Position numbers and translations under genes: made by a program. A stretch of 64,000 bases of DNA. Origin: a virus. Shown here piece after piece: positions 5,653-64,000 of the stretch; the stretch's first letter is position 1; each line of letters begins with the position of its first letter. The stretch is from positions 9,725-73,724 of IMG/VR virus record IMGVR_UViG_3300006931_000005, one strand, 5' to 3'. The notes below the pieces were generated by a model. That model was not told the DNA's origin. It made no database searches and saw only the letters and a list, made by a program, of their open reading frames with translations.

Positions 5653-6740
5653 TTCTCTACGCATCATCTCCTGATGGGGTCGCCCAGCAGCAGAATTACT
5701 ACGACCAGCTCCGAATGAACGCGGAGCAGAACAATGCCGCACGCTTCGACGCGGCACAGGCCCGTGCGCTTCAGGCCACCCTTCAGCAACGTGAATCCGA
5801 CCGGCGCTCGCAGGATGCCGCCGATACCTCCGCAGAGCAAGCTGACCAGTTCAACCAGCGTCTTGCCTTCGAGGGTCAGCAAGGTGATCTGAACCGCGCT
5901 TCACACGAGAAGGACGTGAACACGCAGTACAGCTCGACGCACGCCGACCGGCAGGATGCGATCAATCAGCGCGATTTCGAGCAGGCTCAAAAGCTGGCCA
6001 TGGCTGGTCAGATTCCGCAGACCGAGGAGAAGGTTGCCTCGCTGTATCCGAATTTCAGCAAAGACCAGATCAAAGTTTTGGCGGCGGCAAGCTCGCAGCA
6101 CGCCTTCGACCGTTTCGGCACCGCTCTCGATATGTCGATCCGCGCCGGTAATCCGTTGCCGCTTGAAGCCGTCTCCAAGATCGTCAACCCGGACTCTCCG
6201 ATGTACAAGGACGCGATTGATTTTCGCACCGAAAAACTCGCGCCGTTCGTCCAGCAGTTCAAGACCGGTGAGGACAAGGCCCGCAAGGGAAATTTAGCAG
6301 CAAAGATTCAGGCTGATACCGAGGCTGCACCGCTTCCGACTTCATTGAGCGCCAATACCCCTATGTGGGCTGGCGGTTATGCAAATCCTATCAACTGGGG
6401 TATTCGGCTCGGCGAGCATTTGTTCCCGGATATTACCCCAGATAATACAATCCAGCCTCGTGGCGACTGGCAGACGCGGGCTCCGTCGATTGTTTCATCG
6501 CTCCGCGCTGGGAATGATCCGGCTGTAACCACAGACGTTACAACTGGAAAATTTGTGAACACGATGCTCAATCCGAACGGTGGCCCGCAAGCACCGGAGC
6601 CGATTGTTCCGCCGATCCAGCCCGGCCCGGTCGCTCCTGTCCCCGGCGTTCCGACGGTCACAACTCAAGCCCAATTTGATGCGCTGCCCAGCGGTGCCAT
6701 TTACATTGGAAAAAACGGTAAGCAATTTCGCAAGCCATGA
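5649..6740 (+). CDS. putative internal virion (ejection) protein
   Basis: Q/A-rich coiled N-terminus; C-terminal PTVTTQAQFDALPSGAIYIGKNGKQFRKP of the kind seen in podophage ejection proteins. Confidence 0.65.
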   Translation: MILYASSPDGVAQQQNYYDQLRMNAEQNNAARFDAAQARALQATLQQRESDRRSQDAADTSAEQADQFNQRLAFEGQQGDLNRASHEKDVNTQYSSTHADRQDAINQRDFEQAQKLAMAGQIPQTEEKVASLYPNFSKDQIKVLAAASSQHAFDRFGTALDMSIRAGNPLPLEAVSKIVNPDSPMYKDAIDFRTEKLAPFVQQFKTGEDKARKGNLAAKIQADTEAAPLPTSLSANTPMWAGGYANPINWGIRLGEHLFPDITPDNTIQPRGDWQTRAPSIVSSLRAGNDPAVTTDVTTGKFVNTMLNPNGGPQAPEPIVPPIQPGPVAPVPGVPTVTTQAQFDALPSGAIYIGKNGKQFRKP

Positions 6741-9700
6741 AGCAAGATGATTTTGGCGGCATCGCATTGGACGATCCACAATCATCTGACGAATTTGGTG
6801 GTGTACCGTTGGCACCTTCCACATCGACAGATGAATTCGGTGGGGCACCTTTAACTTCACCGGCTCCGATTCAAGTCCCGGCGCAGAGCCAGCCGATGCC
6901 GGAGCCGATTCCATTCAAAAACCCGGACATCATCGCGCCCGCGCCGGAAGCGCCGTCGATCCCCGGCGTCTTGGCCCGCAGCGCGGCCAGAAATGTTCTG
7001 CCGACCGCAGGATTTATTGCGGCTGCGCCAGTCGGTCGCTTGGCCGGTGCTGCTGCTGGTGCCCGCACTGGCGCTCTGCTTGGAGCTCTGGTGCCCGGTC
7101 TTGGTGAAACTGGCGTCAGTGAGGGCGTTGGCGCAGTGATTGGTGGCCTTATCGGTATGTTCGCCACTGGAACAGCGGCGGCAACTGCAACGAAAGCACT
7201 TCAGACTGGCGCTGCCGATTACGTCGCACCAGATTCTTTCCTTGGAACGAAGTCGGAGCAGGCGGATATGGCGGCACATCCCATCGCCAGTGAGCTGGGA
7301 AGCCTTGCCGTCATCGGAAAACCGAATCCGTTCAACATCATCCGGGCTGCACGCACCATCGGGTCGGATACCGGACGCGCAGCACTCGCCGATCTGTTGA
7401 AAACTGGCGCGACCAAGGGCGGCTATCAGGAATGGGCCAAGACTTACTCGCCAGAGGTGCAAAAATCTGCTGTCAACGTGCTCAACGTCGCGCAGGCGGG
7501 CGGCATCAACGCGGCTTTCAATGTGTACGACCAGATCAAATCTGGAAATTACAGCGCGGGCGACCTTTTACGGTCGGCGGCGGAGGGCGCTTTGTTCAAT
7601 GAGCCTTGGATTCACGCAAAAAATCCTGCGACCGACTCGTTTGATTCCGCACTGACACCCGAACAGGCCACGGAAGCGAATAAAAACCTCCGGGCGTTGA
7701 GCCCGTACCCGGAAACCGGGACGCCGACGAACATCTCGAAGGGGATCGTGGCCGTTCCGGTCGGTCAGCGGACGCATATCATCCAAGTGAACGGTCAGGA
7801 CGCCGCCGTTTTGAAGCACGTCGATGGCGCGGACTTTCAGAAGGCGCAGGACGATGCTGGCGCGTCCGGGTGGGACGGATATTTTCTTAAAAAAGACCCG
7901 GAGAGCGGCAATCCGACGATCTACATCAACATGGATCACCTGAACCGTCAGGATTCCCTGTTCACGCACGAGTCAACGCATTTGCTGGAGGCCATGGGGC
8001 TCATCAACCAGCAGCAGATGGACGCCGTGAACACGACCTACGGCCAGATCAAGGTCAAGGACGCCGACGGAAATGAATTGCCCATCGCTCAAGAGGTGGC
8101 GAACCGTTACGCGAAATTTAATCAGGACAACAGCCGACCGGATCAGACGCCGGAAGATTTTCAGCGCGAACTTTTCGCCAACATCCTGCAACACTGGCAT
8201 GAAACCGGGACTGCGCCGAAAGACACCTTCATCAAGCGGGCGATTGATTTCATTTCCGGCATTGCCGGGCTCGATAAATCGGGCGAACAGCACGCGAGAG
8301 ACTATATCGCTGGCCGTTTTGAGAAGGCACCTGAAGAAGCCGGAGCTCCGGCGACCGCCGATCTTGTTCCGGCTGGCGCAGCGAGCGCGGCTCCTTTGCC
8401 AAATTTGGCATTTGACAAAAATCCTGTTCCGTCGCAGGCTACGGGTGATGTCAGACAAGCCGAAGAACGAGCAGGAGCCGGAGTACCACCGCCCGCCGAA
8501 GGGGTGGAAGCCGGGAGGCCCGCCGTTGGTGCTCCGCCCGCCCGCCCCGGTGCCGAGCCCAACGCCGCCGTCCAGCAAGCCGCCAATGCCTACAACGAAG
8601 CCGTAGGTCTCGGCCCAACGCAGCCGCATTACGTCCCGGTGGACGAGGCCCGTGCCCGCCAGATCGCCGCCGAGTACGAGAAGCTTCCGAAAACCGACCA
8701 GTCTCCGCAGACCCTTGCGTCCTACGAACAGCTTGGCAAGGAAATCCAGCAGCAGTGGGATTATGCCCGGAACAAAATGGGCATCACGTTCGAGGCTTGG
8801 ACGAAAGAGGGCCAGCCCTACGCGAATTCCCGCGAGATGGTGAAGGATGTCCGGGACAATCATCACCTTTATTTTTTCACAGGCGGCGATGAGCATCCGC
8901 TGCTCAACGTCAAGGACGCTGACGGGCTCACGCTCAATGACAAGCTCCGGGCTGTCCATGACCTGTTCGGTCATGCGGCGGAAGATTTTCAATTCGGCGC
9001 ACGCGGCGAGGAAAATGCGTGGATCAAGCACAGCCAGATGTTCACTCCCCTCGCGCAGAAGGCGCTGACGACCGAGACCCGTGGCCAAAACTCGTGGGTG
9101 AATTACGGGCCGCACAATTACGAGGCGACCGGTGCCCGGAGAAACATCAAGCCGCAGGATCGTCCGTTTGCGGATCAAAAAGTTGCCCTGCTCCCTGACT
9201 GGGTGCATGATTGGAAAGGCCCGTTAAATGAAAACCAAAAAGCACAGTTCAGCGTCCCGAAACAAGCGCCCGATTTCACCGACCTCCAGTGGTGGAAGCG
9301 TGACAAATCCGAACCGGATGCAGGCGCTCGTGAATCTGGCGCTCCAAGAACTATCGCAGGTAATCCCCGCGAGCTCGCCCCCGGCGAACGCGACGGCAAA
9401 GTAACACTCACGCACTGGTCGAACTTCGACCTTCACGGAAAGGCGATTGATCCGAATTTTTACGGCTCCGGTTATGCCGGTGAGGAAAAAGGCCGTCGGG
9501 TTTTCAAAAAGTCTTGGCTGAACCGCAGCTATTTTGGAATGAAGGGCTACGTCAAAGAAGGTGGCCTTGGCCGATTCAAGCACAGCGTCACGGTGGACGT
9601 GAACAAGCTCTACGACCTGAAGAATGATCCCGACCGGCTGGGTGAAAAAGTCGGCGCGATCTCCGACCGGCTGTATCCGAAGGGTGGCACGCAAGCCGAT

Positions 9701-12700
9701 CTCACCGTTTACGAAAATCTCATCAAGAAGGCCGGGTACATCGGATACTACAACACCGATTATGCGGTGGCCGCGCTGTTCGACAAGGTGCGCGTCCCGG
9801 CCCGCGTTTCAATCATTCACTCGGTTGAAAATTTCAAGCCCGCCACACACAAGGACATGACGCCGGAGGAGCTGCTGACATCGGCGCAACAGGTGCGGAT
9901 CAAGGCTCCTTCCGGGACTACCGCATTGCGTGTGATCGACTCGAACGGCAACACCGTGATTCATAACCTGTCGAAATTCTCGACCAGAAATCCGCTGTTC
10001 AACAAGGATGTGGTGCGTGTCAGCCCGGTATCGGTGAAAACCAGTGGCGTGTACAAGAACCATCCGATCCCAGTGAAAGGGCCAGTGCGCGTCGAGCCGA
10101 CGGCGATGTTTTCGGTGCCGAAGAAAAAAGAATTTTTAGATGCGGGCGAGGAATCTCGCAATCCAAGACCTAATGCTACGACATTGCCGACTCCACCGAC
10201 AGGGGGGCTTAAAGAAATCGGAGATCGTACCGCATCTAAGTTTAATTACGATAAAAACGTGCTGGATGAAAATGGCGCGATGAAGCGATTTTATCACGGA
10301 ACAGGAAAATCGGATCAATTAGTAAAATCTGGAGGATTTAGCTATGAAAAAGCCAGCGACGAATCACTGTATGGAAAAGGATTATATTTCACTGAAAATC
10401 CTGAAATTGCTGGAGGAACAGTCGTAGGCGCTGATTTGGTAAAACGCGGATATGCTGGCAGCTCTGGTGCTGTCATTCCGGTCAACATCAATGCCAAAAA
10501 TCTTTTTGATGATTCGGTCGGTATTCCGAAGCAGCAAGCCGAAAAGCTGGTGCTAAAATATATTGATAAAAACGGTGAAAACGATGTCCAGCTTAACGGC
10601 AAGTATGGATCATTCGCCGCCGCAAAACCGGTAATTAAAGCGCGTGAATCAATAGATAATTCGTTTCGAGAATTGATTGATGATTTGGCGCAAGAAAAAT
10701 CAATTCGGGATTTAGTTAAAAAATATGTTCCAGCCGGAAGTTTATCTGGAAGCCAGACCATAAAAGATCGTTTGAGCTGGGCTTTTGGTCGGCGCAGTAT
10801 CCATAACTCAATCGCGTCTGAACAGGATAAGTCGGCTGGTGGAATACGGGCTGAATCAACAGGTGATATTAAGCAAAAAATTTACCAACTCGATGATCTT
10901 GAAAAGCAAAGCAATGCTCTTGATCGTCAAATTTCAGAGGCGATGGGGCAGGTTGGTAAGTATTCTGACTTTGTAAAAAAAGTAATTGAAAATGTTGATG
11001 GCCCTGTGAAATACGGCGATCTTACAGATATTTTTTTACAGGACAAAAACGAGGTCAATAATTTTTTAAGAAATTCTGGATACGATGGGATTACTCATAT
11101 TGGAGGAACTATCACAGGTAGCGATCCACATCGCGTTGTAATTGTTTTCGATCCGAAGCAGATTCGCTTTGCGATTGGCGCAGATCAGCCTTTCTTTTCA
11201 GTTCCAAAAAATTCATCTCAAGAGCTGAAAAAATTTCCGCGCACAGCCATCGACATTCTGATGGACGAATCGGTAATCAATCCGGTGCGTCCGAAGCAGG
11301 TTGCCGAATTCGATCTCATGGGCGATGACGAGGCCGCAGGATCGACCAGCTTCTCCCGCGTGTTCGCGGTTGCCGACCACCTTTCCCGCCGATCCGCGCA
11401 GCTTGGCGGTGGAGCCCTGCACGAGCTCAACGACACAAACGCCGAGACGCTGGCAAACACTGTGGCGAACGAGGCGGAGTACGCGATCAACCGCGATCCG
11501 AAGGCGATTGGCTGGTACGACCGCGAAATGAAGGCGGCGATGGGCCAGATTTTTAACCGGCACCCGGAGCTGAAGAAAGATCGCGGCCTGCAATCCGTTT
11601 TCAAATCCATTCTGGCGATCACCAACAACGGCCAGAATGTTTTTGCGAATTTCGCGCAGGCGGACAAGCTTTACACGGATTGGCGCACGGCGGGCAAGGT
11701 GCCGGACGAGGAGAACTGGGGCGGCAAGAGTAAGGGCGCGATCAACGACGGCCTGAAGATGCTCAACCTGCTCATCGAGAAGCTGGGCACCGCGAATCTG
11801 GAAAAGTTTTTGGCCAAGGAATTCAAGGTTGGCGATCTCAAGAGGGCTGGATTCGACATCAGTTCTGAAAACACCGAGCACATGGCGCACGGCTCGCTGA
11901 TCTACGGCCCGAAGGTCGGCGGCGGATTCTATCAAAACCTGATCGGCAACCTGAATCCGATCACGATGGATATGTGGCTCATGCGGACGATCAACCGTAT
12001 GCGCGGCACGCTCACCGAGCCCAGCCTCACGGCGCTCCCGGATCAGATCGACCGGTTCATCAAGTCGATGAAGAAGCAGCCGGACAGCGAGGCGATTATC
12101 GCGGATGCCAAGCGCGTGAAGCAGCAGATTTTGGACGGCACGCTCGACGTGAACAAGGAGAAGGATGCTCCGGGTGTGATGCTGACCGCCGCCAAGAATT
12201 TGTACGACGATTACCGCAACAGCGGGTTCGTAAAGCGGACGGAGCTCAACCGCAGCTCGAAGCTGATCGCCGAGGAATTTTTCGGCATCAACGAAGCGCC
12301 GACTTCGGCGTCCGAGCGTGATTTCATCCGCAATGTTTTCGTCCGGGCGCAGGAGAAGTTGAAAGCGAAAAAAATCGACATCACGAACGCCGACCTGCAA
12401 GCCGTTCTGTGGTATCTTGAGAAGGATATTTATGGAAAACTTGGAGCAACCGACCGCCGATCCGCGCCCGCCAGCTACTCGGACGCCGCCGCAGCCCTCA
12501 ACCGAAAACAGCTCGGACTTTTCGATGAAGAACAAGGACGATCAGGCGATCTTCGAGGAGCTGAATCCGCTGGCCCGGAGATCAATCGCTTCGGTGAAGC
12601 TGGCAAGCAGCTTACTGGCGCACAGGCGCTCAAGCGGGTCTCCGTCCAAGAAGCGGAGCCTGTACCGCAGTTCTCGGTGACGAAGAAGCTGAAGTTTTAC

Positions 12701-15700
12701 GAAGGCAAACGCTTCGGTGACGTGAAGGACGAGGTGGTGCCGGAAGTTCCGCCGTTTCATCCGCTCGGCGTCGAACAATTCAAGCAGGCCCGCGACAGCA
12801 TCGTGAACCTCGCGCACACGACCGGCGCGATCCAAGCGCGTGGTATGCGGATCAACTTCGCCAACCCTGATCCGGTCACGGCCAAGCGCCTTGGCGTTGA
12901 CCAGAACAGCATGGTGGCCCGCGCCATCCACGCGATCTCAAATTCCGACCGGCGCACGGCGAACGAAAACAAGGTGCTGCTCGCCGACAACATTTTGAAC
13001 ACGGTGAAGCAGGCTGATTTCGTCACCAAGATTCAACGTGATTCAACGGACGGTGATAATGTCGGCCAGTACGGTACGGCATTCATCAAGGCTTACGATA
13101 TTGACGGCAAGAAGGTCTGGCACCTTGTCCAAGTGGACGGCAATGGTGATTTTATCACGCAATTTTCTTGGCCGGATACGGAAGCTGAAAATGGACGGGT
13201 GATGCGGTCGCAGATTGTGCAGGTTGGTCAGCGGGTTGGTGGTTTGCTAGAGTCGAAGGTTAATCCGCAGGCCGAAGCCCCGACGCCTTCTAATTTCGCT
13301 CCGCCAACCGCTGACCAAGGTGAGATTGCCACATCTGGCAAAGAGGCGCAACCTCAATTTTCAGTAGCCAAGGAGGAGAAGCGGGCGCAGGTCGGCGGCA
13401 TCCCTGAAGTCGGTCAGGTGCGCGATACCGAATCCATTTCCGACAACCAAGCGCACATCCGCGAGCGCCTGTTCGACGGCACGCAGCCTGTTTCTGACGA
13501 GAACACATCCGCCGCGTGGCAGGTATTCGACGAGATGACGGGCAACAACCGCTCCCAGATCGCCGGGCAGTTGAAAGACGCCTTTGGCGGATCGCGGCTG
13601 CTCCTTGGCCTATATAAAGGCGAGGTCTGGAAGTACGCCCGCAAGCTGGCGGTCAACGGTGACGATTCGCTGCTGCGGGCGATGTACGATCACAGCGAAC
13701 AGTTTGAGACCCTTGCCGGTGGTGGCGCATCAACCGCTGGCTCCGCGCTCCGGGCCGAGGCCGAGAATGCAAACGATCCGGTCAACCGGGCACTCCAGTC
13801 CGCCTACGAGACCGAGCGCGAAAATGCGGCCCAGTCCGCCTCCGGCATCGACCGCGAGACCTTCACCGGACTGCTCAAGCGCCTGCGTAGCCTGAAGCTG
13901 ACGCCGGACGAGGTTGAGAAGGTGGTCAAGGAGGGCAAGCTGCCGGACGGCAAAACCCTCGAAGAAGCTTTGGACGAGCTTACGCCGGAATCGAAGGAGG
14001 CCATGGCGTTGCTCGACAAGTATCAGCGTTCGCAGACGGAATGGCTGAAGCCGGACGTGAAGAAGTCGATCATCCGCGTGATCGTGGACGCCGCCATCGG
14101 CGAGAACAAGCTGGCGCGTTACGACGAGAAGGATTTTCAGGATCGGTTGTCCACCCGGCTGCAAGAAGCCACGGTGCCGAAGGAAGTCGCCGACCAGCTC
14201 GCGTTCGAGGTGTGGAAAGACAAGGCTGCACGCGAGGCCACCAAGACCGACAAGGCTGTCAAGGCGGATGCCGCGTTCGAGCAGAACCGGGCGCAGGCCA
14301 TTCTCGACAAATTGCAATCTGACCAGACCGAAGTGTTCAGTCAGGCCCGGCGCTCGAAGGTTGCTGACATCGTTAAGGCGTTTTACAAAAACCCTGCGGC
14401 GTCCGAAGAAGTGCGAGCCCAGCAGATCGCGCAGCTCGAAAAAGATTTGGTTAATGAGACCGTGAAACCCGCAACGGCCAAGGAGCTGGCGCGGGAAGCT
14501 GGCCAGCGCAAGCTGGTGCTCGAAGCAAACGACCGGCTGGCGCAGGAGAAGGTCACGGCCAACGAAGCGCAGCAGACCGCTGAACGCGAGCTCGCAAAAT
14601 TCGAGGAGAAAAACTCCGGTGTCGAATGGCTGAAGGAAAAAGGCAAACGCGATCAGGTGCTTCAGGCGATTGCCGATGCGCTGAAGTCGAAGTCGCCGAT
14701 CCTCGATGATCCGACACCGCTGGTGAACGAGACCAAGGCGAAGCTCACTGCGCTCGGCGTAGATGAGGCCACGGCGGGCAAGCTGGCTTTCGAGATCGAG
14801 ACCGTCCGGCGCACGCAGTTCGCCAACAGCCGCGTGAAGGCGATGGAAAATGCCGCCAAATCTAAAAGCCTGCGGTCGCTCATCGAATCTATCCTCGAAA
14901 CCCCGTACCGCGCCCAGTCCGACCCGAAATGGCTGCATGAAACTGCTGTCCGCTGGTTCGAGTCGAACGGTCTCGGCAAGGATCAGGCTGAAGCCGCCGC
15001 CCGGCTGTTCGACAAGGAGTTTAAAGAGGCGTTGGCGCAGGCCAGCACCAAGGTTGCCGAGGCTGAACTGAAGAAAAAAGTATCGCCCCGCACTTACGAT
15101 GATCTGGAGCGGTTGATCCGGGCCGGAATTTTCGACCCGGACAAAAACTGGATCGACCAGCTCGCGGCGAAGAACGGCTGGAAGAAGCCATCGCGTGACC
15201 AGATGCTCAAATTGCAGGAATTGGAGCACAAGCTTTCCGATCCTGAATTGTCACCCGAAGAAGTGCGCGACATCCAAGAGCAGCAGATGCACGTCCTGCG
15301 TCACGTCGGCAAAAAAAGGGGCCAGACCCTCCGGGCGCTCGGCGAATCGTTCACTGCCTCGCTGCTGTCCGGCATCCGCACGCTTACCGTGCAGACCTCG
15401 CCGACGGTCATGGCCCTCCGCGATCTGCCGATCATGGCGCTGTCCGATCCGAAGAACGCGATGAATTTTGCGAAGGCGATGTACAACTCCTTCAAGGCAA
15501 ATGCGGTCGCGGCGTTCAAATTCGCGTGGATGAAGGACGCCTACGGTTTTCACTTGAGCGAGCTGGAGCACGGCTTCAACGAGATGAAGCGCATCTCCGA
15601 GGAGACGGATCAGGTGGTCAACTCAAAGACCTCGACGCCGGTTGCCAAGGCGCTCGCGTACACCAAGAAGCTCTACGCGCTCCAGCGTTTTGTTTTCCGC

Positions 15701-17515
15701 AACCTGAATTCCATCGACCAAGCTTCGATGGCTGTCACCCGCGAATGGAAGCTGGCGTATTATTCCGCTTCTGCGTTCAAAGAAGCCGGGCTGACGAACA
15801 CGGACATTTCGCAGTTGATCGACCACATCGAGATGCTGCGTAAAAACGAATTCGAGAAAGCCATCGACGCCGGGCTGGATGCGAACACGGCCAAGGTGCG
15901 GGCCAACAGCCGGGTCGCGGATTCCGTCTGGGATTTCGTGAATAACAAGACCGGTCGCAGCGATCTTGCGGATCAGGTTATCAAGGCTACCGAGAACGAC
16001 GTGTACTCCACCGTCGGTCGTGTGCCGCACGGCTTGAATTCAACGGATGAAGGCTTCCTGACCCGGTTCTCCGGCTTTAATCATTTCCTGCAATTCGTGT
16101 CCAAGGTTCGCGGCGAAGGCGGGCTCCAGAACATCGGCACCACGGCGCTGATCGGCATGATTAACATTCCATTCCGCACGACCCGTTATTTTTCTGACTT
16201 CTCGCCCTACGGCCTGCTGCGCTACGGTATCTACAAGTACCGGCTGAATCGCGGCAAGGAAAACTTCTGGAAACAGACGTATGGCAACGCGCTTCAGGCT
16301 CGCGCCCGGCTGTACTCCGCGCTCGCGGGCACCGTTGCCATGGCCGCAGCGACCGCATGGGCGCTCAAGAGCAACACGGCGGACGACAAGGCTGGTGACG
16401 AGGACTTCGGCCTGTACATCACCGGCAAGGGGCCGAACAACAAGGTGCTGGCCGATGCGTGGGTCAAGCGTGGATTCAAGCAGTATTCGGCAAACTTTGT
16501 TTTCGGTGGCCACATCGTTGCGATTCCGCTGACCCGTGCGGGCGAAGCCCTGATGATGCCCTTCATCCTGCCCGCCGCGCTCGATGACTATGCGTGGAAA
16601 TCGAAAGAGGCGGAAGCGGGCGGTCATCCGATCAAGACTCCGATTTCATCCGCCACTGCATCACTGATCGGCGAGGCAATGTACATGACCGGCCAGTCAG
16701 GTATCCTCCAGACTTTTGGCCAGCTCCAGCAGGCGACTGAAAACGGCGGCAGCTTGGGCAAGGCGGCGGTCAAGGTCGGTGTGAGCGCGGCATCATCGAC
16801 GGTGTTACCCTTCCGCCAGCTCCTCGCGTCCGTGAGCGAAATGCTTTTCGGAAGCATGGATAATTCAAGCATCAGCTCGCTGATCGCAAACCAGTTTCCA
16901 ATCGTGGGCCTGCCGTTTCAGAATCCGGCTGTCAACCGCTTTGGTGATCCGATGTACGACCGTAGCTGGTACGGTCTGATCGCCCGCACTGGCGTTCCCA
17001 TCGCTTTTCAGATTTCGCGTTCGCCGGAAAATGAGCGGTTGTACACGACGCTCGTGGAAAAAGGAATTTCGCCACCGCCGCTGAATCGCTCCGATCTTGA
17101 ATCGAAGTACGGCGACATGACCGATCAGCAGTTCAAGCAGTTTGCTACCGTTTCAGGTCAGGCGTTGAAGCAGGCAATCACAAAGAATCTTCCCGACCTT
17201 CAGGGCATGAGCTCGGTGGACGCGAAGAACCTGATGTTCAAGCTGGCGATGCAGGCGAACGCTCAAGCGGCCATGGCCATTGGCGTGGCTCCGCAGCCCG
17301 CAGCCGGTCAGACTGCCGCCGCAGGGTCGGCTGGTGCCGCGCCGTCGAAACAGAAAAAGGCGAAGCTTTCCAAGGCGTCTAAATCAGTCCGGTCGCTTTA
17401 CAAGCTGCCGAAGATGAGCCTGTCTCCGGTCGGTAAGAAATCTCACAAATCGACCACGGCCCGGCGCGGTGGATCGCTCTACGGCGTGCAGCCACGCCAC
17501 CTCTACGGCACCTGA
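6737..17515 (+). CDS. giant polyvalent ejected virion protein (3592 aa): HExxH peptidase-like, HDxxGH domain, two ADP-ribosyltransferase-like modules, HhH glycosylase-like, BECR-like nuclease, helical C-terminus
   Basis: THESTH; RAVHDLFGH..F..RGEENAW; LTHWS..RSYFG; FYHGT..YGKGLYFT..GYDGI..VVIVFDPKQIR; GWY..GPKVG..ITMDMW..LQAVLW; modules joined by FSVxK. Confidence 0.85.
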   Translation: MKQDDFGGIALDDPQSSDEFGGVPLAPSTSTDEFGGAPLTSPAPIQVPAQSQPMPEPIPFKNPDIIAPAPEAPSIPGVLARSAARNVLPTAGFIAAAPVGRLAGAAAGARTGALLGALVPGLGETGVSEGVGAVIGGLIGMFATGTAAATATKALQTGAADYVAPDSFLGTKSEQADMAAHPIASELGSLAVIGKPNPFNIIRAARTIGSDTGRAALADLLKTGATKGGYQEWAKTYSPEVQKSAVNVLNVAQAGGINAAFNVYDQIKSGNYSAGDLLRSAAEGALFNEPWIHAKNPATDSFDSALTPEQATEANKNLRALSPYPETGTPTNISKGIVAVPVGQRTHIIQVNGQDAAVLKHVDGADFQKAQDDAGASGWDGYFLKKDPESGNPTIYINMDHLNRQDSLFTHESTHLLEAMGLINQQQMDAVNTTYGQIKVKDADGNELPIAQEVANRYAKFNQDNSRPDQTPEDFQRELFANILQHWHETGTAPKDTFIKRAIDFISGIAGLDKSGEQHARDYIAGRFEKAPEEAGAPATADLVPAGAASAAPLPNLAFDKNPVPSQATGDVRQAEERAGAGVPPPAEGVEAGRPAVGAPPARPGAEPNAAVQQAANAYNEAVGLGPTQPHYVPVDEARARQIAAEYEKLPKTDQSPQTLASYEQLGKEIQQQWDYARNKMGITFEAWTKEGQPYANSREMVKDVRDNHHLYFFTGGDEHPLLNVKDADGLTLNDKLRAVHDLFGHAAEDFQFGARGEENAWIKHSQMFTPLAQKALTTETRGQNSWVNYGPHNYEATGARRNIKPQDRPFADQKVALLPDWVHDWKGPLNENQKAQFSVPKQAPDFTDLQWWKRDKSEPDAGARESGAPRTIAGNPRELAPGERDGKVTLTHWSNFDLHGKAIDPNFYGSGYAGEEKGRRVFKKSWLNRSYFGMKGYVKEGGLGRFKHSVTVDVNKLYDLKNDPDRLGEKVGAISDRLYPKGGTQADLTVYENLIKKAGYIGYYNTDYAVAALFDKVRVPARVSIIHSVENFKPATHKDMTPEELLTSAQQVRIKAPSGTTALRVIDSNGNTVIHNLSKFSTRNPLFNKDVVRVSPVSVKTSGVYKNHPIPVKGPVRVEPTAMFSVPKKKEFLDAGEESRNPRPNATTLPTPPTGGLKEIGDRTASKFNYDKNVLDENGAMKRFYHGTGKSDQLVKSGGFSYEKASDESLYGKGLYFTENPEIAGGTVVGADLVKRGYAGSSGAVIPVNINAKNLFDDSVGIPKQQAEKLVLKYIDKNGENDVQLNGKYGSFAAAKPVIKARESIDNSFRELIDDLAQEKSIRDLVKKYVPAGSLSGSQTIKDRLSWAFGRRSIHNSIASEQDKSAGGIRAESTGDIKQKIYQLDDLEKQSNALDRQISEAMGQVGKYSDFVKKVIENVDGPVKYGDLTDIFLQDKNEVNNFLRNSGYDGITHIGGTITGSDPHRVVIVFDPKQIRFAIGADQPFFSVPKNSSQELKKFPRTAIDILMDESVINPVRPKQVAEFDLMGDDEAAGSTSFSRVFAVADHLSRRSAQLGGGALHELNDTNAETLANTVANEAEYAINRDPKAIGWYDREMKAAMGQIFNRHPELKKDRGLQSVFKSILAITNNGQNVFANFAQADKLYTDWRTAGKVPDEENWGGKSKGAINDGLKMLNLLIEKLGTANLEKFLAKEFKVGDLKRAGFDISSENTEHMAHGSLIYGPKVGGGFYQNLIGNLNPITMDMWLMRTINRMRGTLTEPSLTALPDQIDRFIKSMKKQPDSEAIIADAKRVKQQILDGTLDVNKEKDAPGVMLTAAKNLYDDYRNSGFVKRTELNRSSKLIAEEFFGINEAPTSASERDFIRNVFVRAQEKLKAKKIDITNADLQAVLWYLEKDIYGKLGATDRRSAPASYSDAAAALNRKQLGLFDEEQGRSGDLRGAESAGPEINRFGEAGKQLTGAQALKRVSVQEAEPVPQFSVTKKLKFYEGKRFGDVKDEVVPEVPPFHPLGVEQFKQARDSIVNLAHTTGAIQARGMRINFANPDPVTAKRLGVDQNSMVARAIHAISNSDRRTANENKVLLADNILNTVKQADFVTKIQRDSTDGDNVGQYGTAFIKAYDIDGKKVWHLVQVDGNGDFITQFSWPDTEAENGRVMRSQIVQVGQRVGGLLESKVNPQAEAPTPSNFAPPTADQGEIATSGKEAQPQFSVAKEEKRAQVGGIPEVGQVRDTESISDNQAHIRERLFDGTQPVSDENTSAAWQVFDEMTGNNRSQIAGQLKDAFGGSRLLLGLYKGEVWKYARKLAVNGDDSLLRAMYDHSEQFETLAGGGASTAGSALRAEAENANDPVNRALQSAYETERENAAQSASGIDRETFTGLLKRLRSLKLTPDEVEKVVKEGKLPDGKTLEEALDELTPESKEAMALLDKYQRSQTEWLKPDVKKSIIRVIVDAAIGENKLARYDEKDFQDRLSTRLQEATVPKEVADQLAFEVWKDKAAREATKTDKAVKADAAFEQNRAQAILDKLQSDQTEVFSQARRSKVADIVKAFYKNPAASEEVRAQQIAQLEKDLVNETVKPATAKELAREAGQRKLVLEANDRLAQEKVTANEAQQTAERELAKFEEKNSGVEWLKEKGKRDQVLQAIADALKSKSPILDDPTPLVNETKAKLTALGVDEATAGKLAFEIETVRRTQFANSRVKAMENAAKSKSLRSLIESILETPYRAQSDPKWLHETAVRWFESNGLGKDQAEAAARLFDKEFKEALAQASTKVAEAELKKKVSPRTYDDLERLIRAGIFDPDKNWIDQLAAKNGWKKPSRDQMLKLQELEHKLSDPELSPEEVRDIQEQQMHVLRHVGKKRGQTLRALGESFTASLLSGIRTLTVQTSPTVMALRDLPIMALSDPKNAMNFAKAMYNSFKANAVAAFKFAWMKDAYGFHLSELEHGFNEMKRISEETDQVVNSKTSTPVAKALAYTKKLYALQRFVFRNLNSIDQASMAVTREWKLAYYSASAFKEAGLTNTDISQLIDHIEMLRKNEFEKAIDAGLDANTAKVRANSRVADSVWDFVNNKTGRSDLADQVIKATENDVYSTVGRVPHGLNSTDEGFLTRFSGFNHFLQFVSKVRGEGGLQNIGTTALIGMINIPFRTTRYFSDFSPYGLLRYGIYKYRLNRGKENFWKQTYGNALQARARLYSALAGTVAMAAATAWALKSNTADDKAGDEDFGLYITGKGPNNKVLADAWVKRGFKQYSANFVFGGHIVAIPLTRAGEALMMPFILPAALDDYAWKSKEAEAGGHPIKTPISSATASLIGEAMYMTGQSGILQTFGQLQQATENGGSLGKAAVKVGVSAASSTVLPFRQLLASVSEMLFGSMDNSSISSLIANQFPIVGLPFQNPAVNRFGDPMYDRSWYGLIARTGVPIAFQISRSPENERLYTTLVEKGISPPPLNRSDLESKYGDMTDQQFKQFATVSGQALKQAITKNLPDLQGMSSVDAKNLMFKLAMQANAQAAMAIGVAPQPAAGQTAAAGSAGAAPSKQKKAKLSKASKSVRSLYKLPKMSLSPVGKKSHKSTTARRGGSLYGVQPRHLYGT
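8397..8440 (+). promoter_or_regulatory. internal operator plus promoter inside the giant gene
   Basis: TGCCA-AATT-TGGCA (8397-8410), then TTGACA(8412)-17-CAGGCT(8435); ATG at 8448. Confidence 0.55.
8448..8606 (+). CDS. nested +1-frame micro-protein (52 aa, MSDKPKNEQEPEYHRPPKGWKPG...)
   Basis: Own promoter; G/C third-position bias moves to this frame. Confidence 0.5.
   Translation: MSDKPKNEQEPEYHRPPKGWKPGGPPLVLRPPAPVPSPTPPSSKPPMPTTKP
9228..9404 (+). CDS. nested +1-frame micro-protein (58 aa, ...MQALVNLALQELSQVIP...)
   Basis: Spans first FSVPK linker; G/C third-position bias in this frame over its second half. Confidence 0.42.
   Translation: MKTKKHSSASRNKRPISPTSSGGSVTNPNRMQALVNLALQELSQVIPASSPPANATAK
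12525..12680 (+). CDS. nested +1-frame micro-protein (51 aa, MKNKDDQAIFEELNPLARR...)
   Basis: Giant frame has atypical A/T-ending codons here (GAA CAA GGA CGA TCA) while +1 frame reads AAG AAC AAG GAC GAT CAG GCG ATC TTC GAG GAG CTG. Confidence 0.52.
   Translation: MKNKDDQAIFEELNPLARRSIASVKLASSLLAHRRSSGSPSKKRSLYRSSR
13226..13316 (-). ncRNA. antisense structured RNA embedded in the giant gene
   Basis: Long closing stem GGUCAGCGGUUGGCGG/CCACCAACCCGCUGACC; GGC-UUCG-GCC hairpin on minus strand; 5' G follows a -10 box by 6 nt. Confidence 0.6.
13323..13351 (-). promoter_or_regulatory. antisense promoter with operator
   Basis: TTGCGC-17-CAATCT; TCTTTGCCAGATGTGGCA is 17/18 identical to the tRNA-cluster promoter. 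Confidence 0.6.
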
Positions 17516-61577: not shown

Positions 61578-62198
61578 TTAAATATCGTATCCCCAGAGCG
61601 TGTAGATCAGGATTTTGGTCTTGGTCTCGCGCTTGATGTGAGCGCCACGATCAAAGTATTTGCCGCTGCAATCGTGGGCGCTGTTCGTGCGGGTCGGCTC
61701 ACCATGTTCTTCGAGATACCGTTTGGCCAGCTCCTTGTCGGTGAACAGCAGCCAAAAGATGCCGCTGTCGGATTCAATGCGGCTACGTTCGAGCTGCGTG
61801 ATCCCAGCCGGATGTTCGTGATCGCGCTCCCATTGTGAATGATGGTAGCGTGTACCTTCACGCGCTGATCCATTGATGCAACCAGTCGCCAGCAAAAGGC
61901 GCTCGACATCGAAATGGTTCATCCAGCACCAGCCACCAGTGCCCAGCAGGATCGCGCCGGGATAGATGCCGCAACGCGGGTTGAACTTGTTGAGCCAGTC
62001 GGCGAGCTGATCGCCGTACTGACCGCATTGCGGCCCGTTGGGATCAGACTGGTCGAGGACGTTCAGCGCGAACTCTCCGCGTGAATTGATCCCAAGAGAG
62101 GCTTCGTTTTTCCATGTGATGCCGAATTTTTGGGCAAGATTTTTGAGACCTTGAACGAGTATTTTTTCTCGCGCCCATGATTGTTTTAGAGGGTTCAT
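61578..62198 (-). CDS. hypothetical early protein
   Basis: AAAGGAAATCAC-ATG RBS; SAHDCSGK motif. Confidence 0.7.
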   Translation of the reverse strand: MNPLKQSWAREKILVQGLKNLAQKFGITWKNEASLGINSRGEFALNVLDQSDPNGPQCGQYGDQLADWLNKFNPRCGIYPGAILLGTGGWCWMNHFDVERLLLATGCINGSAREGTRYHHSQWERDHEHPAGITQLERSRIESDSGIFWLLFTDKELAKRYLEEHGEPTRTNSAHDCSGKYFDRGAHIKRETKTKILIYTLWGYDI

Positions 62199-62269
62199 GT
62201 GATTTCCTTTTTTGGTGTAGCGTGATTGCTACAACCGGCCACCTCTGTCGAAGTGGCCGGGTGTAAAAG

Positions 62270-62659
62270 TCACCATCCTCTTTCCTTCCGCGCCTGCCGC
62301 CTCGCCTCGGCCAGCGTCATCACTTTCTTCAGCTCGCGCACCCGCGCATCGTACCGGCCCGTTGAGACGCGGATCATAAAGCGGTAGATGTCCTGCGCCG
62401 TCGCCGAGACCTCCCGGCGCGTGCCGGTTGGCCGCATCACGATCACGTCGCCATCCGCCAGCGTCACAGCCAGCCGCCTGCGCCGATCCTTGCCGAATTG
62501 TCCGCCCAGTTCGTCACGGGTCATCGCAGCCACGGGTGATGGCACTTGAGCGATGACTGCGCCCGCCTTGTCACGCACCGGCCTTTTATGTCCAAAGGTT
62601 CTCACGGTTTGACCTCGCTTTCTCCGGTTGGCTCGTTTCAGATTTTGCTGGCTCGGCAT
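62270..62659 (-). CDS. Arg-rich hypothetical protein (start uncertain)
   Basis: Typical codon usage in the 3' two thirds. Confidence 0.55.
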   Translation of the reverse strand: MPSQQNLKRANRRKRGQTVRTFGHKRPVRDKAGAVIAQVPSPVAAMTRDELGGQFGKDRRRRLAVTLADGDVIVMRPTGTRREVSATAQDIYRFMIRVSTGRYDARVRELKKVMTLAEARRQARKERGW

Positions 62660-62777
62660 TTCGAGCCCTGATTTTAGCAAAGTCGATCAGCCAGCCCGTG
62701 CCTTCGCAGGCCGGGCAGTTGTCGCGCTGGATTCCTCGCCTGCATCCGCATTTGAATCCTGTTTTTGGTTGGTACAT
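62586..62777 (-). CDS. Zn-finger early protein
   Basis: CGC...CPACEGTG; AAAGGAAATCGT-ATG RBS. Confidence 0.65.
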   Translation of the reverse strand: MYQPKTGFKCGCRRGIQRDNCPACEGTGWLIDFAKIRARNAEPAKSETSQPEKARSNRENLWT

Positions 62778-62801
62778 ACGATTTCCTTTGGTTCAAACGA
62801 T

Positions 62802-62853
62802 GATCTCGTCAGCATCCGAATTACGGATGGACGCCCGTGTGGGCGTTTCGATC
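62802..62853 (-). ncRNA. hammerhead ribozyme (type II) C
   Basis: GAUC-GAAA-CGCCC(ACAC)GGGCG-UC^CAUCCG(UAAUU)CGGAUG-CUGACGA-GAUC; predicted cut 62830/62829. Confidence 0.93.
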
Positions 62854-62863
62854 TTCAGGTAAA

Positions 62864-63151
62864 TCACCAGCACTCGATGAACGGCTGGATGTCGGTTTTG
62901 TAAATCCGGTCGCAGATGGTTTCGTACTGGATTGCGATTTGGATTTTACCCTTCAGGCGGCAGTCGATGGCCGTCACCTTGTTCCACGCATAGTTGGTCA
63001 GCGCGTTGGCGCATTTGAACGCCCGACGACCTTTGAAGCCAAGGCGAAACGCCAACGTAGCGTTCCGGGCATTGCCGTACTTTTCGACAAATGCCTTCGC
63101 CTCGGTTTCATCGTCGAGGTTGAGCTCGATCTTGAACAGTTTTTTGCTCAT
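62864..63151 (-). CDS. hypothetical early protein
   Basis: Stop lies just before ribozyme C. Confidence 0.65.
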   Translation of the reverse strand: MSKKLFKIELNLDDETEAKAFVEKYGNARNATLAFRLGFKGRRAFKCANALTNYAWNKVTAIDCRLKGKIQIAIQYETICDRIYKTDIQPFIECW

Positions 63152-63156
63152 GCGAT

Positions 63157-63375
63157 TTATGAGCGTTGCGGAATGATGCCAACCGTCACCTTGCCAACAA
63201 CCAGCTTTTCAAAGCCGCCGTTTTCTTCAGCCATCTTCTCGAAAGATGCGAAGCTGAAATACGATCCGTAGTTGTTGCCGTCACTGTCACAGATCGAAAC
63301 ATTCGATCCGTTGGGCACGATCAGGAATGTGAAATTCCCACGGCCACGCTTCACGATTTTGAATACTTCAGTCAT
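63157..63375 (-). CDS. hypothetical early protein
   Basis: AAAGGAAATCGT-ATG 63375, after ribozyme B. Confidence 0.65.
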   Translation of the reverse strand: MTEVFKIVKRGRGNFTFLIVPNGSNVSICDSDGNNYGSYFSFASFEKMAEENGGFEKLVVGKVTVGIIPQRS

Positions 63376-63400
63376 ACGATTTCCTTTATGTTCAGATGAT

Positions 63401-63450
63401 GGACTCATCAGTACCGGATTTACCGGCAGACGCCCGTAGGCGTTTCGTCC
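63401..63450 (-). ncRNA. hammerhead ribozyme (type II) B
   Basis: GGAC-GAAA-CGCC(UACG)GGCG-UC^UGCCGG(UAAAU)CCGGUA-CUGAUGA-GUCC; predicted cut 63429/63428. Confidence 0.95.
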
Positions 63451-63452
63451 TT

Positions 63453-63723
63453 TTATTCACCTCCTTTCAAGCCCAAACTCACGTTCACAAGATCGTGAAC
63501 GAAATCCCGCCGCCCACCCTTGAATTCGTTGATGAGGGACGCGACGGCATCGTGGCCTTGGCTGTCCAGACCGGATGCCGGGCCTTTCAGGAATGCCGAC
63601 AGCTCCTTTGCGACCACGGTGATGACTGCCCAGAACTTCCAGCGCCACCTTGATTCGGGCATCGCTCGTGGCGATCTGTTTTTTGAGTTTCTTGTCGGCC
63701 AGTGCTTTCGATTTTTTGCTCAT
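63453..63723 (-). pseudogene. early gene apparently split by a 1-nt frameshift near 63630
   Basis: Codon bias switches frame at CTG-G-GCA; second frame stops 2 nt before ribozyme B. Confidence 0.5.
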
Positions 63724-63749
63724 GGTTTGATCCTTTGTTCAGATAAGTG

Positions 63750-63803
63750 AAGTCTCATCAGTGTGCGCGTAACGCACAGACGGCCACTTGGCCGTTTCGA
63801 CCT
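63750..63803 (-). ncRNA. hammerhead ribozyme (type II) A
   Basis: AGGUC-GAAA-CGGCC(AAGU)GGCCG-UC^UGUGCG(UUACG)CGCACA-CUGAUGA-GACUU; predicted cut 63779/63778. Confidence 0.95.
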
Positions 63804-64000
63804 TACAACCAGCCCTGCGCCTTGGCGAACCGCTCGATCTCATCCCAGCCGATGCGATGGCAACCGGCGACCACGCCCTGATCGTTTACGGCGTCAAGCT
63901 GGAAGTCGCCAACCTTGAACGTCTCGCCATTGCGATGCCAGCCGGTTTCGCGCTTGCTGGTGATGAACCGGAAGGCGAGCTTGGCTTCAGCCAGCGGAAC
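63803..64000 (-). CDS. 3' end of an early gene truncated by the window edge
   Basis: Open frame ...VVAGCHRIGWDEIERFAKAQGWL*; TAA overlaps stem II of ribozyme A. Confidence 0.7.
   Translation of the reverse strand, partial: VPLAEAKLAFRFITSKRETGWHRNGETFKVGDFQLDAVNDQGVVAGCHRIGWDEIERFAKAQGWL

What the first reader, a model, noticed from the sequence alone, without database searches (positions are those of the whole stretch)
62802..63803. Three tandem hammerhead ribozymes punctuate the early operon
Seen: three type II hammerheads within 1 kb, all in mRNA sense, each with an intact CUGANGA/GAAA/GUC core. Each starts 0-10 nt after a stop codon and is followed by a shared TGAAC..AAAGGA ribosome-binding leader. 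Stems differ in sequence but keep full pairing, which indicates selection on structure. Known: hammerheads occur in bacterial and phage intergenic DNA, and T7 uses host RNase III to cut its early mRNA into units. Inference: protein-independent processing of the early transcript, giving each unit a 5'-OH end capped by the stem I hairpin. More copies may lie beyond the window edge.
Basis: partly seen in the sequence, partly recalled or inferred. Interest (0 to 1): 0.87.

Follow-up and report, generated by a model that had tools for sequence, protein, structure and literature searches.

The report
Hammerhead ribozymes between phage genes
Three (four in the whole genome) very probably genuine self-cutting hammerhead RNAs sit between small genes of an uncultured soil phage and most likely chop one long message into gene-sized pieces, a layout known in phages since 2011, so this is a clean new example and not a new kind of system.

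Summary
Three canonical type II hammerhead motifs lie on the minus strand at 63803-63750, 63450-63401 and 62853-62802. A fourth copy lies about 1.5 kb upstream, across the junction of this complete 73.7-kb viral contig.

Shuffled genomes give 0.035 such motifs against 4 observed. All 16 helix pairs hold in all four copies, and 10 of them show changes on both sides. Rfam scores the copies below its threshold (24-27.5 bits against 37). A model built from 100 unrelated IMG/VR phage hammerheads scores them 60.6-67.2 bits, and the next best hit in the genome scores 12.7.

The arrangement is ordinary. In 258 sampled phage hammerheads, 229 follow a stop codon within 3 nt. The start codon lies a median 24 nt downstream. 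42 of 187 loci carry arrays, always on one strand. Perreault et al. 2011 described such clusters and tested them. This scan has noted the layout before on other DNA, in at least 42 genomes.

Two additions. In all four copies the 3' tail can pair with the CUGANGA core, with a compensatory change at N7. A related phage has one hammerhead where this one has HH2, two genes and HH3, so the ribozymes mark a cassette boundary. No cleavage data exist.

The parts
63750..63803 (-). HH1, a type II hammerhead. Stem II 3' strand 63803-63799 (overlaps the UAA stop at 63805-63803), GAAA 63798-63795, stem III hairpin 63794-63781, U16.1-C17 63780-63779 (cut 63779/63778), stem I hairpin 63778-62 (63778-63762), CUGAUGA 63761-63755, stem II 5' strand 63754-63750.
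   Evidence: Rfam RF02276 24.2 bits; model R1 60.6 bits, E 1e-14
63401..63450 (-). HH2, a type II hammerhead. Cut 63429/63428, stem II GGAC/GUCC, stem III closed by a UACG loop, loop I UAAAU.
   Evidence: RF02276 26.5 bits; R1 66.5 bits, E 2e-16. An orthologous hammerhead with changed stems I and III is present in relative L361.
62802..62853 (-). HH3, a type II hammerhead with N7 = C (CUGACGA). Cut 62830/62829, stem II GAUC/GAUC.
   Evidence: RF02276 25.2 bits; R1 67.2 bits, E 1e-16
63737..63749 (-). 3' tail of HH1. CUUAUC (63747-63742) can pair with G5-G10.1 of the core, followed by UGAAC.
   Evidence: MFE of the 3' cleavage product
63390..63400 (-). 3' tail of HH2. UCAUC (63399-63395) is complementary to GAUGA of the core, followed by UGAAC.
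62791..62801 (-). 3' tail of HH3. UCGUU (62800-62796) is complementary to GACGA of the core. The G opposite N7 = C is the compensatory change relative to HH2.
63803..64000 (-). 3' end of a 292-aa gene (phrog_7247, function unknown) that runs across the contig junction. HH1 follows it.
63457..63723 (-). 88-aa orphan gene between HH1 and HH2. Its start codon is 26 nt after HH1.
   Evidence: 50% identical homologue in L361
63157..63375 (-). 72-aa orphan gene, the first gene of the HH2-HH3 unit. Its start codon is 25 nt after HH2.
62864..63151 (-). 95-aa orphan gene, the second gene of the HH2-HH3 unit. No hammerhead lies between it and the 72-aa gene.
62586..62777 (-). 63-aa orphan gene after HH3. 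Its start codon is 24 nt after HH3.
   Evidence: 75% identical homologue directly after the single hammerhead of L361

Best explanation
The three motifs, plus a fourth just outside the window, are functional type II hammerhead self-cleaving ribozymes. They belong to a very common, compact phage subfamily with a 4-bp open stem II, a 17-nt stem I hairpin with a U-N-A-N-G loop, and no loop I / tail pseudoknot. They are transcribed as part of one leftward polycistronic mRNA. Each cuts itself after C17 without any protein. The upstream message then ends in the stem III hairpin with a 2',3'-cyclic phosphate. The downstream message begins with a 5'-OH buried in the stem I hairpin, 24-27 nt (counted from the ribozyme's 3' end) before the next start codon. 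The transcript is thereby divided into units of about 1590, 350 and 599 nt whose stability and translation can differ. Shown here: the motifs, their statistical significance, covariation, subfamily membership, and the generality of the layout stop codon / hammerhead / ribosome-binding site. Inferred: transcription as one operon, cleavage in vivo, and the consequences for stability and translation.
For: All invariant core positions are intact in 4 of 4 copies, while the stems differ yet stay 100% paired. Ten of 16 pairs change on both sides, and 0 of 500 shuffles reach this. The genome has 4 motifs against 0.035 expected. The hammerhead fold is the MFE for three of four copies in a 61-66-nt context. 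Model R1, built from 100 independent IMG/VR hammerheads, gives 60.6-67.2 bits for the four copies and 12.7 for the next hit. All four are on the coding strand, directly after stop codons and 24-27 nt before SD+AUG. The same holds for 229 of 258 (stop codon) and 191 of 258 (SD plus start, median 24 nt) sampled phage hammerheads. All 42 loci with two or more copies have them on one strand. The orthologous hammerhead in relative L361 keeps the structure with different stem I and stem III sequences. No promoter-like or terminator-like sites above chance lie between the genes, and sigma-70-like promoters stand at the operon head. Published tests of analogous clusters showed cleavage in vitro and in vivo (PMC3088659; PMC8782182).
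Against: There is no cleavage or RNA-end data for this phage. Rfam RF02276 scores are below the gathering cut-off. The loop I / 3'-tail pseudoknot that drives fast cleavage in the published type II consensus is absent, so the rate at physiological Mg2+ is unknown. In longer contexts the nearest-neighbour MFE prefers folds in which the tail masks the core or the flanks pair. The seeds of R1 were collected with a pattern taken from these copies, so agreement in the core is partly by construction.
Confidence: 0.8

Rival explanations
1. Cleavage is not constitutive. It is gated, or locked afterwards, by the 3' tail, which folds back on the CUGANGA core. In one version the hairpin holds part of the RNA in an inactive state until something, for example a 30S subunit on the adjacent ribosome-binding site, opens it. 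In the other it forms after cleavage, hiding the single-stranded core, blocking re-ligation and giving the new 5' UTR a second hairpin. This refines the best explanation and does not exclude it.
For: All four 3' products fold with 5-6 of the 7 core bases paired to the tail, against 23% of shuffled tails that reach 5. HH2's MFE already takes this hairpin. With N7 = U the tail reads AUCAUC; with N7 = C it reads AUCGUU. An IMG/VR scan that left the base opposite N7 free gave 10 of 10 matches that covary, 7 distinct sequences. In the commoner register, N'UCAG directly after stem II occurs in 52 of 258 hammerheads against about 1% in control windows. It covaries with N7 (Fisher p 3e-11; 23 of 26 cluster-level cases agree). 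I found no description of it in the held literature.
Against: About three quarters of the sampled hammerheads lack any such tail, so it is not needed for function. The register used here is rare, and its carriers are partly related phages. The four copies are paralogues. Which of the two roles applies cannot be told from sequence.
Confidence: 0.4
2. The hammerheads persist mainly as boundaries of exchangeable gene cassettes. The conserved core plus leader offers short homology for recombination, and the RNA cut is secondary.
For: Relative L361 (a 70.9-kb contig) has the 88-aa homologue, one hammerhead and the 63-aa homologue. This phage has HH2, the 72-aa gene, the 95-aa gene and HH3 in the same place. 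The same 15 nt (AAAGGAAAUCGUAUG) stand at both ends of the extra segment. That relative has only one strong hammerhead against four here.
Against: This is a single comparison, and insertion and deletion cannot be told apart. Recombination homology does not need an intact catalytic core or compensatory stem changes, and both are seen. The idea also does not explain the fixed spacing to stop and start codons.
Confidence: 0.15
3. The motifs are inactive look-alikes. They would be intergenic hairpins that act only as RNA stabilisers or as decayed ribozymes.
For: Scores are below the Rfam threshold. No pseudoknot is present. Perreault et al. found 4 of 18 consensus hammerheads inactive in vitro.
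Against: Every invariant core base is intact in 4 of 4 copies despite divergent stems. The copies score 60-67 bits against the subfamily model. Decay would have hit the unpaired core first.
Confidence: 0.05
4. Pairs of hammerheads excise the segments between them, and these are then ligated into circular RNAs.
For: Each segment would carry the 5'-OH and 2',3'-cyclic phosphate that RtcB-type ligases join. HH4 and HH1 have compatible stem II strands.
Against: The stem II strands of HH1/HH2 and of HH2/HH3 are not complementary, so hybrid ribozymes could not form. Perreault et al. looked for circular or spliced products and found none. The segments are ordinary mRNAs with ribosome-binding sites.
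Confidence: 0.03

Closest known systems
Clustered hammerhead ribozymes flanking single genes or short gene blocks in prophages (Perreault et al. 2011, PMC3088659; tested sets from Clostridium scindens, Azorhizobium caulinodans and Agrobacterium tumefaciens)
   Same: Several hammerheads lie on one strand within a few kb, between small phage genes that are mostly of unknown function. The proposed role is the same: cutting a long transcript into gene-length mRNAs.
   Different: This is another phage, an uncultured 73.7-kb virus from a rhizosphere metagenome, and its genes are different. No experiment has been done. All four copies are type II and none has the pseudoknot.
Type II hammerhead ribozyme, Rfam RF02276
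   Same: The permutation (stems I and III capped, stem II open), the core and the cleavage site are the same.
   Different: Loop I has only 5 nt and cannot form the loop I / 3'-tail pseudoknot of the Rfam consensus. The scores are 24-27.5 bits against a gathering score of 37. In the arrays I checked, only 3 of the 19 listed Hammerhead_II matches pass it.
Type II hammerheads near phage-like genes of Desulfovibrio vulgaris, shown to cleave in vivo by cyPhyRNA-seq (PMC8782182)
   Same: The ribozyme type is the same, the neighbouring genes are phage-like, and two of the copies lie about 300 nt apart.
   Different: Those are bacterial chromosomal loci with direct evidence of RNA ends. There is none here.
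RNase III processing of T7 early mRNA; the synthetic RiboJ insulator (own knowledge)
   Same: The outcome is the same: a polycistronic phage message is cut between cistrons and each unit gets a defined, hairpin-protected end. In RiboJ a hammerhead plus a following hairpin insulates the ribosome-binding site.
   Different: T7 uses a host protein enzyme and leaves different end chemistry. RiboJ is engineered from a type III satellite-RNA hammerhead.

Membership tests
Hammerhead ribozyme (any type) | Invariant core: C3 U4 G5 A6 N7 G8 A9, G12 A13 A14, the A15.1-U16.1 pair and H17 | tested here: met
   All four copies carry the full core with H17 = C. N7 is U in three copies and C in HH3.
Hammerhead ribozyme (any type) | Three helices around the core, with paired N10.1-N11.1 and N1.1-N2.1 | tested here: met
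   64 of 64 cells are paired and 10 of 16 pairs show double changes. The MFE equals the hammerhead fold for HH1, HH3 and HH4.
Hammerhead ribozyme (any type) | Site-specific self-cleavage that gives a 2',3'-cyclic phosphate and a 5'-OH | not testable with these tools
   No RNA run holds the sequence.
Type II hammerhead, Rfam RF02276 | Stems I and III capped by loops, stem II open | tested here: met
Type II hammerhead, Rfam RF02276 | Score at or above the curated gathering cut-off of 37 bits | tested here: not met
   Scores are 24.2, 25.2, 26.5 and 27.5 bits. This reflects the model's long loops and tail, not a defect in the core.
Type II hammerhead, Rfam RF02276 | Pseudoknot between loop I and the tail just 3' of stem II (present in a majority of members, not all; PMC3088659) | tested here: not met
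   By inspection of the loop I and tail sequences printed, the 5-nt loops (UUACG, UAAAU, UAAUU, UUUUG) have no complement of 4 nt or more in the tail directly after stem II. The only one is HH4's CAAAA, 13 nt downstream.
   The subfamily consensus comes from 231 of the 262 hammerheads analysed, a set that includes the four copies here. The four copies score 60.6-67.2 bits. HH4 departs at the loop A, and HH1 has a fifth stem II pair.
Clustered phage/prophage hammerheads (Perreault 2011) | Two or more hammerheads on one strand that flank genes of a phage transcription unit | tested here: met
   Four copies lie on the minus strand with cut sites about 1590, 350 and 599 nt apart. The genome is viral with terminal repeats.

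The most novel reading that the evidence does not exclude
The short 3' tail that can fold back on the CUGANGA box is a selected conformational switch of phage type II hammerheads. Here it takes a rare register that covers the whole box. It would either lock the 3' product after the cut or tie cleavage to events at the adjacent ribosome-binding site. That would give these ribozymes a built-in control element that the published consensus does not show.
Probability: 0.4. Interest if true: 0.55.

Novelty: new member of a known kind. Interest (0 to 1): 0.3.

Why it matters
As an instance it adds little. Tandem hammerheads between phage genes have been described and tested since 2011, and they are abundant in IMG/VR. 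Three points have some value. First, curated Rfam thresholds miss most of this compact subfamily, so phage annotations under-report it. Second, the core-masking tail covaries with the only free core position, which gives a concrete and cheap experiment on how phage hammerheads are controlled or made irreversible. Third, the comparison with a relative suggests that ribozyme plus leader marks the edges of exchangeable gene cassettes. The biological purpose of bacterial and phage hammerheads is still an open question (PMC6765202).

Tried and rejected
- Rfam at gathering thresholds finds only a tRNA. No other ribozyme class appears at E up to 0.5 in the window or in the first 9.8 kb.
- No match in the GenBank phage collection by blastn.
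- Single-protein scans of IMG/VR gave one distant locus without hammerheads and nothing for the 540-aa ATPase.
- A leader-based pattern scan was mostly chance matches and was biased by its own GAAC/AAAGGA requirement. The loci it fetched are unrelated to this phage.
- Sequencing runs: no RNA holder is listed, only the probable source metagenome.
- Cleavage-dependent unmasking of the Shine-Dalgarno sequence by the upstream flank looked attractive for HH3 and HH4. It is not enriched in 261 hammerheads (mean z -0.1, Wilcoxon p 0.79) and is weak in the four copies here, so I dropped it.
- The loop I / tail pseudoknot was looked for by hand and is not present.
- Flanking proteins: no informative hit in PHROGs, Pfam or the ESM Atlas.
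- N4-like identity, suggested by the 3592-aa ORF, is not supported by PHROGs.
- The internal promoter and terminator scan does not exceed shuffles.

Full report
**Context**

The window is bases 9725-73724 of a 73,724-bp IMG/VR virus record. The record has a 90-bp direct terminal repeat and an estimated completeness of 100%. Its only DNA holder is a rhizosphere metagenome. The finding lies at the right end of the window, on the minus strand. A 292-aa ORF runs seamlessly across the contig junction, so the operon continues into the first 3 kb of the contig.

**The observation**

Three type II hammerheads are visible by eye on the minus strand. My scan for GAAA / stem III / UH / stem I / CUGANGA / stem II finds exactly these three in the window. 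It finds a fourth, HH4, at genome 1483-1432(-).
- Coordinates are HH1 63803-63750, HH2 63450-63401 and HH3 62853-62802.
- In 200 dinucleotide shuffles of the genome the same scan finds 0.035 motifs per genome by loose criteria and none by strict criteria.
- On an alignment of the four copies, all 64 pair cells are standard pairs. Ten of 16 pairs change on both sides. No shuffle and no slid register comes near this.
- The minimum-energy fold of HH1, HH3 and HH4 is the hammerhead fold.

**Database status**

Rfam's Hammerhead_II model recognises all four copies, but at 24.2-27.5 bits against a gathering score of 37. The reason is architecture, not decay. Loop I has 5 nt, stem III has a tetraloop, and the loop I / tail pseudoknot of the Rfam consensus is missing.

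I drew samples from IMG/VR with two patterns that fix only the core and the hairpin lengths. After filtering for stems they gave 258 distinct type II hammerheads from other contigs.
- With the four copies here included (262 in all), 231 have a 4-bp stem II and 197 have a 17-nt stem I hairpin.
- Among the 231, the loop I consensus is U-N-A-N-G, and an A flanks stem II on the 5' side in 95%.
- A covariance model built from 100 of them, one per contig and excluding this genome, scores the four copies at 60.6-67.2 bits (E 1e-14 to 1e-16). The next hit anywhere in the genome scores 12.7 bits.

The genome therefore has exactly four hammerheads, and they are typical members of a large compact subfamily. 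In other arrays only 3 of the 19 listed Hammerhead_II matches reach Rfam's cut-off.

**How ordinary the layout is**

In the sample of 258:
- 229 have a stop codon ending within 3 nt of stem II, against 72 in control windows.
- 191 have a Shine-Dalgarno sequence plus a start codon within 60 nt, at a median distance of 24 nt.
- 42 of 187 loci carry two or more hammerheads within the fetched stretch. All 42 have them on one strand, with a median spacing of 514 nt.
- One locus (L257) has 8 by my scan and 11 by Rfam E-value within 8.5 kb.

Perreault et al. [quoted passage not shown] They suggested processing into operon-length or gene-length mRNAs. They saw all expected products for three tandem sets in vitro and for one set in E. 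coli (PMC3088659). Type II hammerheads next to phage-like genes cleave in vivo in D. vulgaris (PMC8782182). A 2019 review still lists the purpose as open (PMC6765202). This scan has already noted the layout in at least 42 other genomes, with the same verdict from follow-up agents.

**Operon context**

The hammerheads sit in a block of minus-strand genes.
- Two identical sigma-70-like promoters (TTGACA-16-TAAATT) lie at genome 3207-3180 and 2373-2346 on the minus strand.
- Between the hammerhead-flanked genes, promoter-like and terminator-like sites do not exceed shuffles.
- The gene order is: 192-aa gene, HH4, 188 aa, 292 aa, HH1, 88 aa, HH2, 72 aa, 95 aa, HH3, 63 aa.
- Further orphan genes follow, and then an ATPase, a topoisomerase-like protein and an exonuclease.
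- The flanked genes have no informative homologues.

'Early' is therefore plausible but inferred.

The distances from the ribozyme's 3' end to the start codon are 27, 26, 25 and 24 nt for HH4, HH1, HH2 and HH3. Only the (U/A)GAAC element is specific to the hammerheads.

**What the tail does**

Folding HH2 gave a hairpin between GAUGA of the core and UCAUC of the tail. The same pairing exists in all four copies:
- CUUAUC in HH1.
- UCAUC in HH2.
- UCGUU in HH3, whose core has N7 = C, so the A-to-G change in the tail is compensatory.
- CUCGCCAG in HH4.

The UG or AG of the conserved (U/A)GAAC element closes this helix on C3. In the predicted 3' cleavage products of all four, 5-6 of the 7 core bases pair with the tail. 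Only 23% of shuffled tails reach 5.

In the unbiased sample, a tail N'UCAG placed directly after stem II pairs with C3-N7.
- It occurs in 52 of 258 hammerheads, against about 1% in control windows.
- It covaries with N7: U goes with A in 25 of 26 cases and C goes with G in 27 of 30 (Fisher p 3e-11).
- At the level of sequence clusters, 23 of 26 cases agree.

The register used here is rare. A scan that fixed AUC-N-U after stem II but left N free returned 10 loci. All 10 have G with N7 = C or A with N7 = U, in 7 distinct sequences.

Pairing between tail and core therefore looks selected. It is mutually exclusive with the active core. The tail is transcribed last, and stem II is the only link between the two products. 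The simplest reading is a hairpin that forms after, or in competition with, cleavage. It would hide the single-stranded core and leave the A-rich ribosome-binding site free, much as the engineered RiboJ insulator does (own knowledge). A true gate on cleavage cannot be excluded. The energies of the two folds are close.

I found no description of this pairing in the held literature. Two earlier follow-ups in this scan reached the same observation on other phages. I saw those notes after my own analysis.

**A relative**

One of the ten loci, L361, lies in a 70,858-bp viral contig that is 96% complete. It encodes a 75%-identical homologue of the 63-aa gene and a 50%-identical homologue of the 88-aa gene. 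A single hammerhead lies between them.
- Its stem II and tail equal those of HH2.
- Its downstream flank equals that of HH3.
- Its stems I and III differ from both while keeping their pairing.

Relative to it, this phage carries the extra segment '72-aa gene, 95-aa gene, HH3'. The same 15-nt leader stands at both ends of that segment. The relative has only one strong hammerhead in its whole record. This gives an orthologous ribozyme with compensatory change. It also gives one case in which gene content differs exactly at a hammerhead boundary. Whether it arose by insertion or deletion cannot be told.

**Rejected ideas**

Pairing of the upstream flank with the Shine-Dalgarno region would make translation depend on cleavage. 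It appeared in the MFE of HH3. It is not enriched in 261 hammerheads (p 0.79) and is weak in the copies here. Circular RNA formation is unlikely because neighbouring stem II strands are not complementary, except between HH4 and HH1.

**Verdict**

The element is a new member of a well-known kind. Interest is modest. It comes mainly from the core-masking tail and the cassette boundary, both of which are general properties of the subfamily and not special to this window.

Noticed in passing
L361:1927-2420 (minus strand) compared with window 62586-63723: The related 70.9-kb phage has the 88-aa homologue, one hammerhead and the 63-aa homologue. This phage has HH2, the 72-aa gene, the 95-aa gene and HH3 in the same place. 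The extra segment is bounded on both sides by the same 15-nt leader (AAAGGAAAUCGUAUG).
   Followed up: partly
L361:3360-3424 (minus strand): In the relative, a hammerhead-like motif with a closed stem II (CUGAUGAG-GCC...GGUC-GAAA, type III topology, stem III of only 3-4 bp) lies in the promoter-proximal part of the same operon. R1 gives it 18 bits. The homologous stretch of this genome has no such motif.
   Followed up: no
L354:2346-2373 and L354:3180-3207 (minus strand; genome coordinates, outside the window): Two sigma-70-like promoters with identical hexamers (TTGACA-16-TAAATT) head the leftward gene block. The second is followed by a leader of about 280 nt before the first gene.
   Followed up: no
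L257, L123, L229, L158 and other IMG/VR loci: Hammerhead arrays much larger than this one exist, with 8-11 copies in 8.5 kb of L257. In the 8 array loci checked, only 3 of the 19 listed Hammerhead_II matches reach Rfam's gathering score, so standard annotation misses this subfamily.
   Followed up: partly
L001:1484-1505 compared with window 62854-62872 (minus strand): HH4 and HH3 share about 20 nt of upstream flank (GUGAUUUA...CUGAAG). In HH4 this stretch is the end of the coding sequence. In HH3 the ORF stops at the first UGA, which leaves the unusual 10-nt spacer.
   Followed up: no
window 6737-17515 (+): A 3592-aa ORF whose only PHROG match is an unknown-function family over residues 607-790. 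It gave no RNA-polymerase match of the N4 virion type.
   Followed up: no
window 62164-62266 (-): A weak match to Rfam PK-repBA (18.8 bits, E 0.8) over a hairpin plus the ribosome-binding site of the 206-aa gene. It is probably chance.
   Followed up: no
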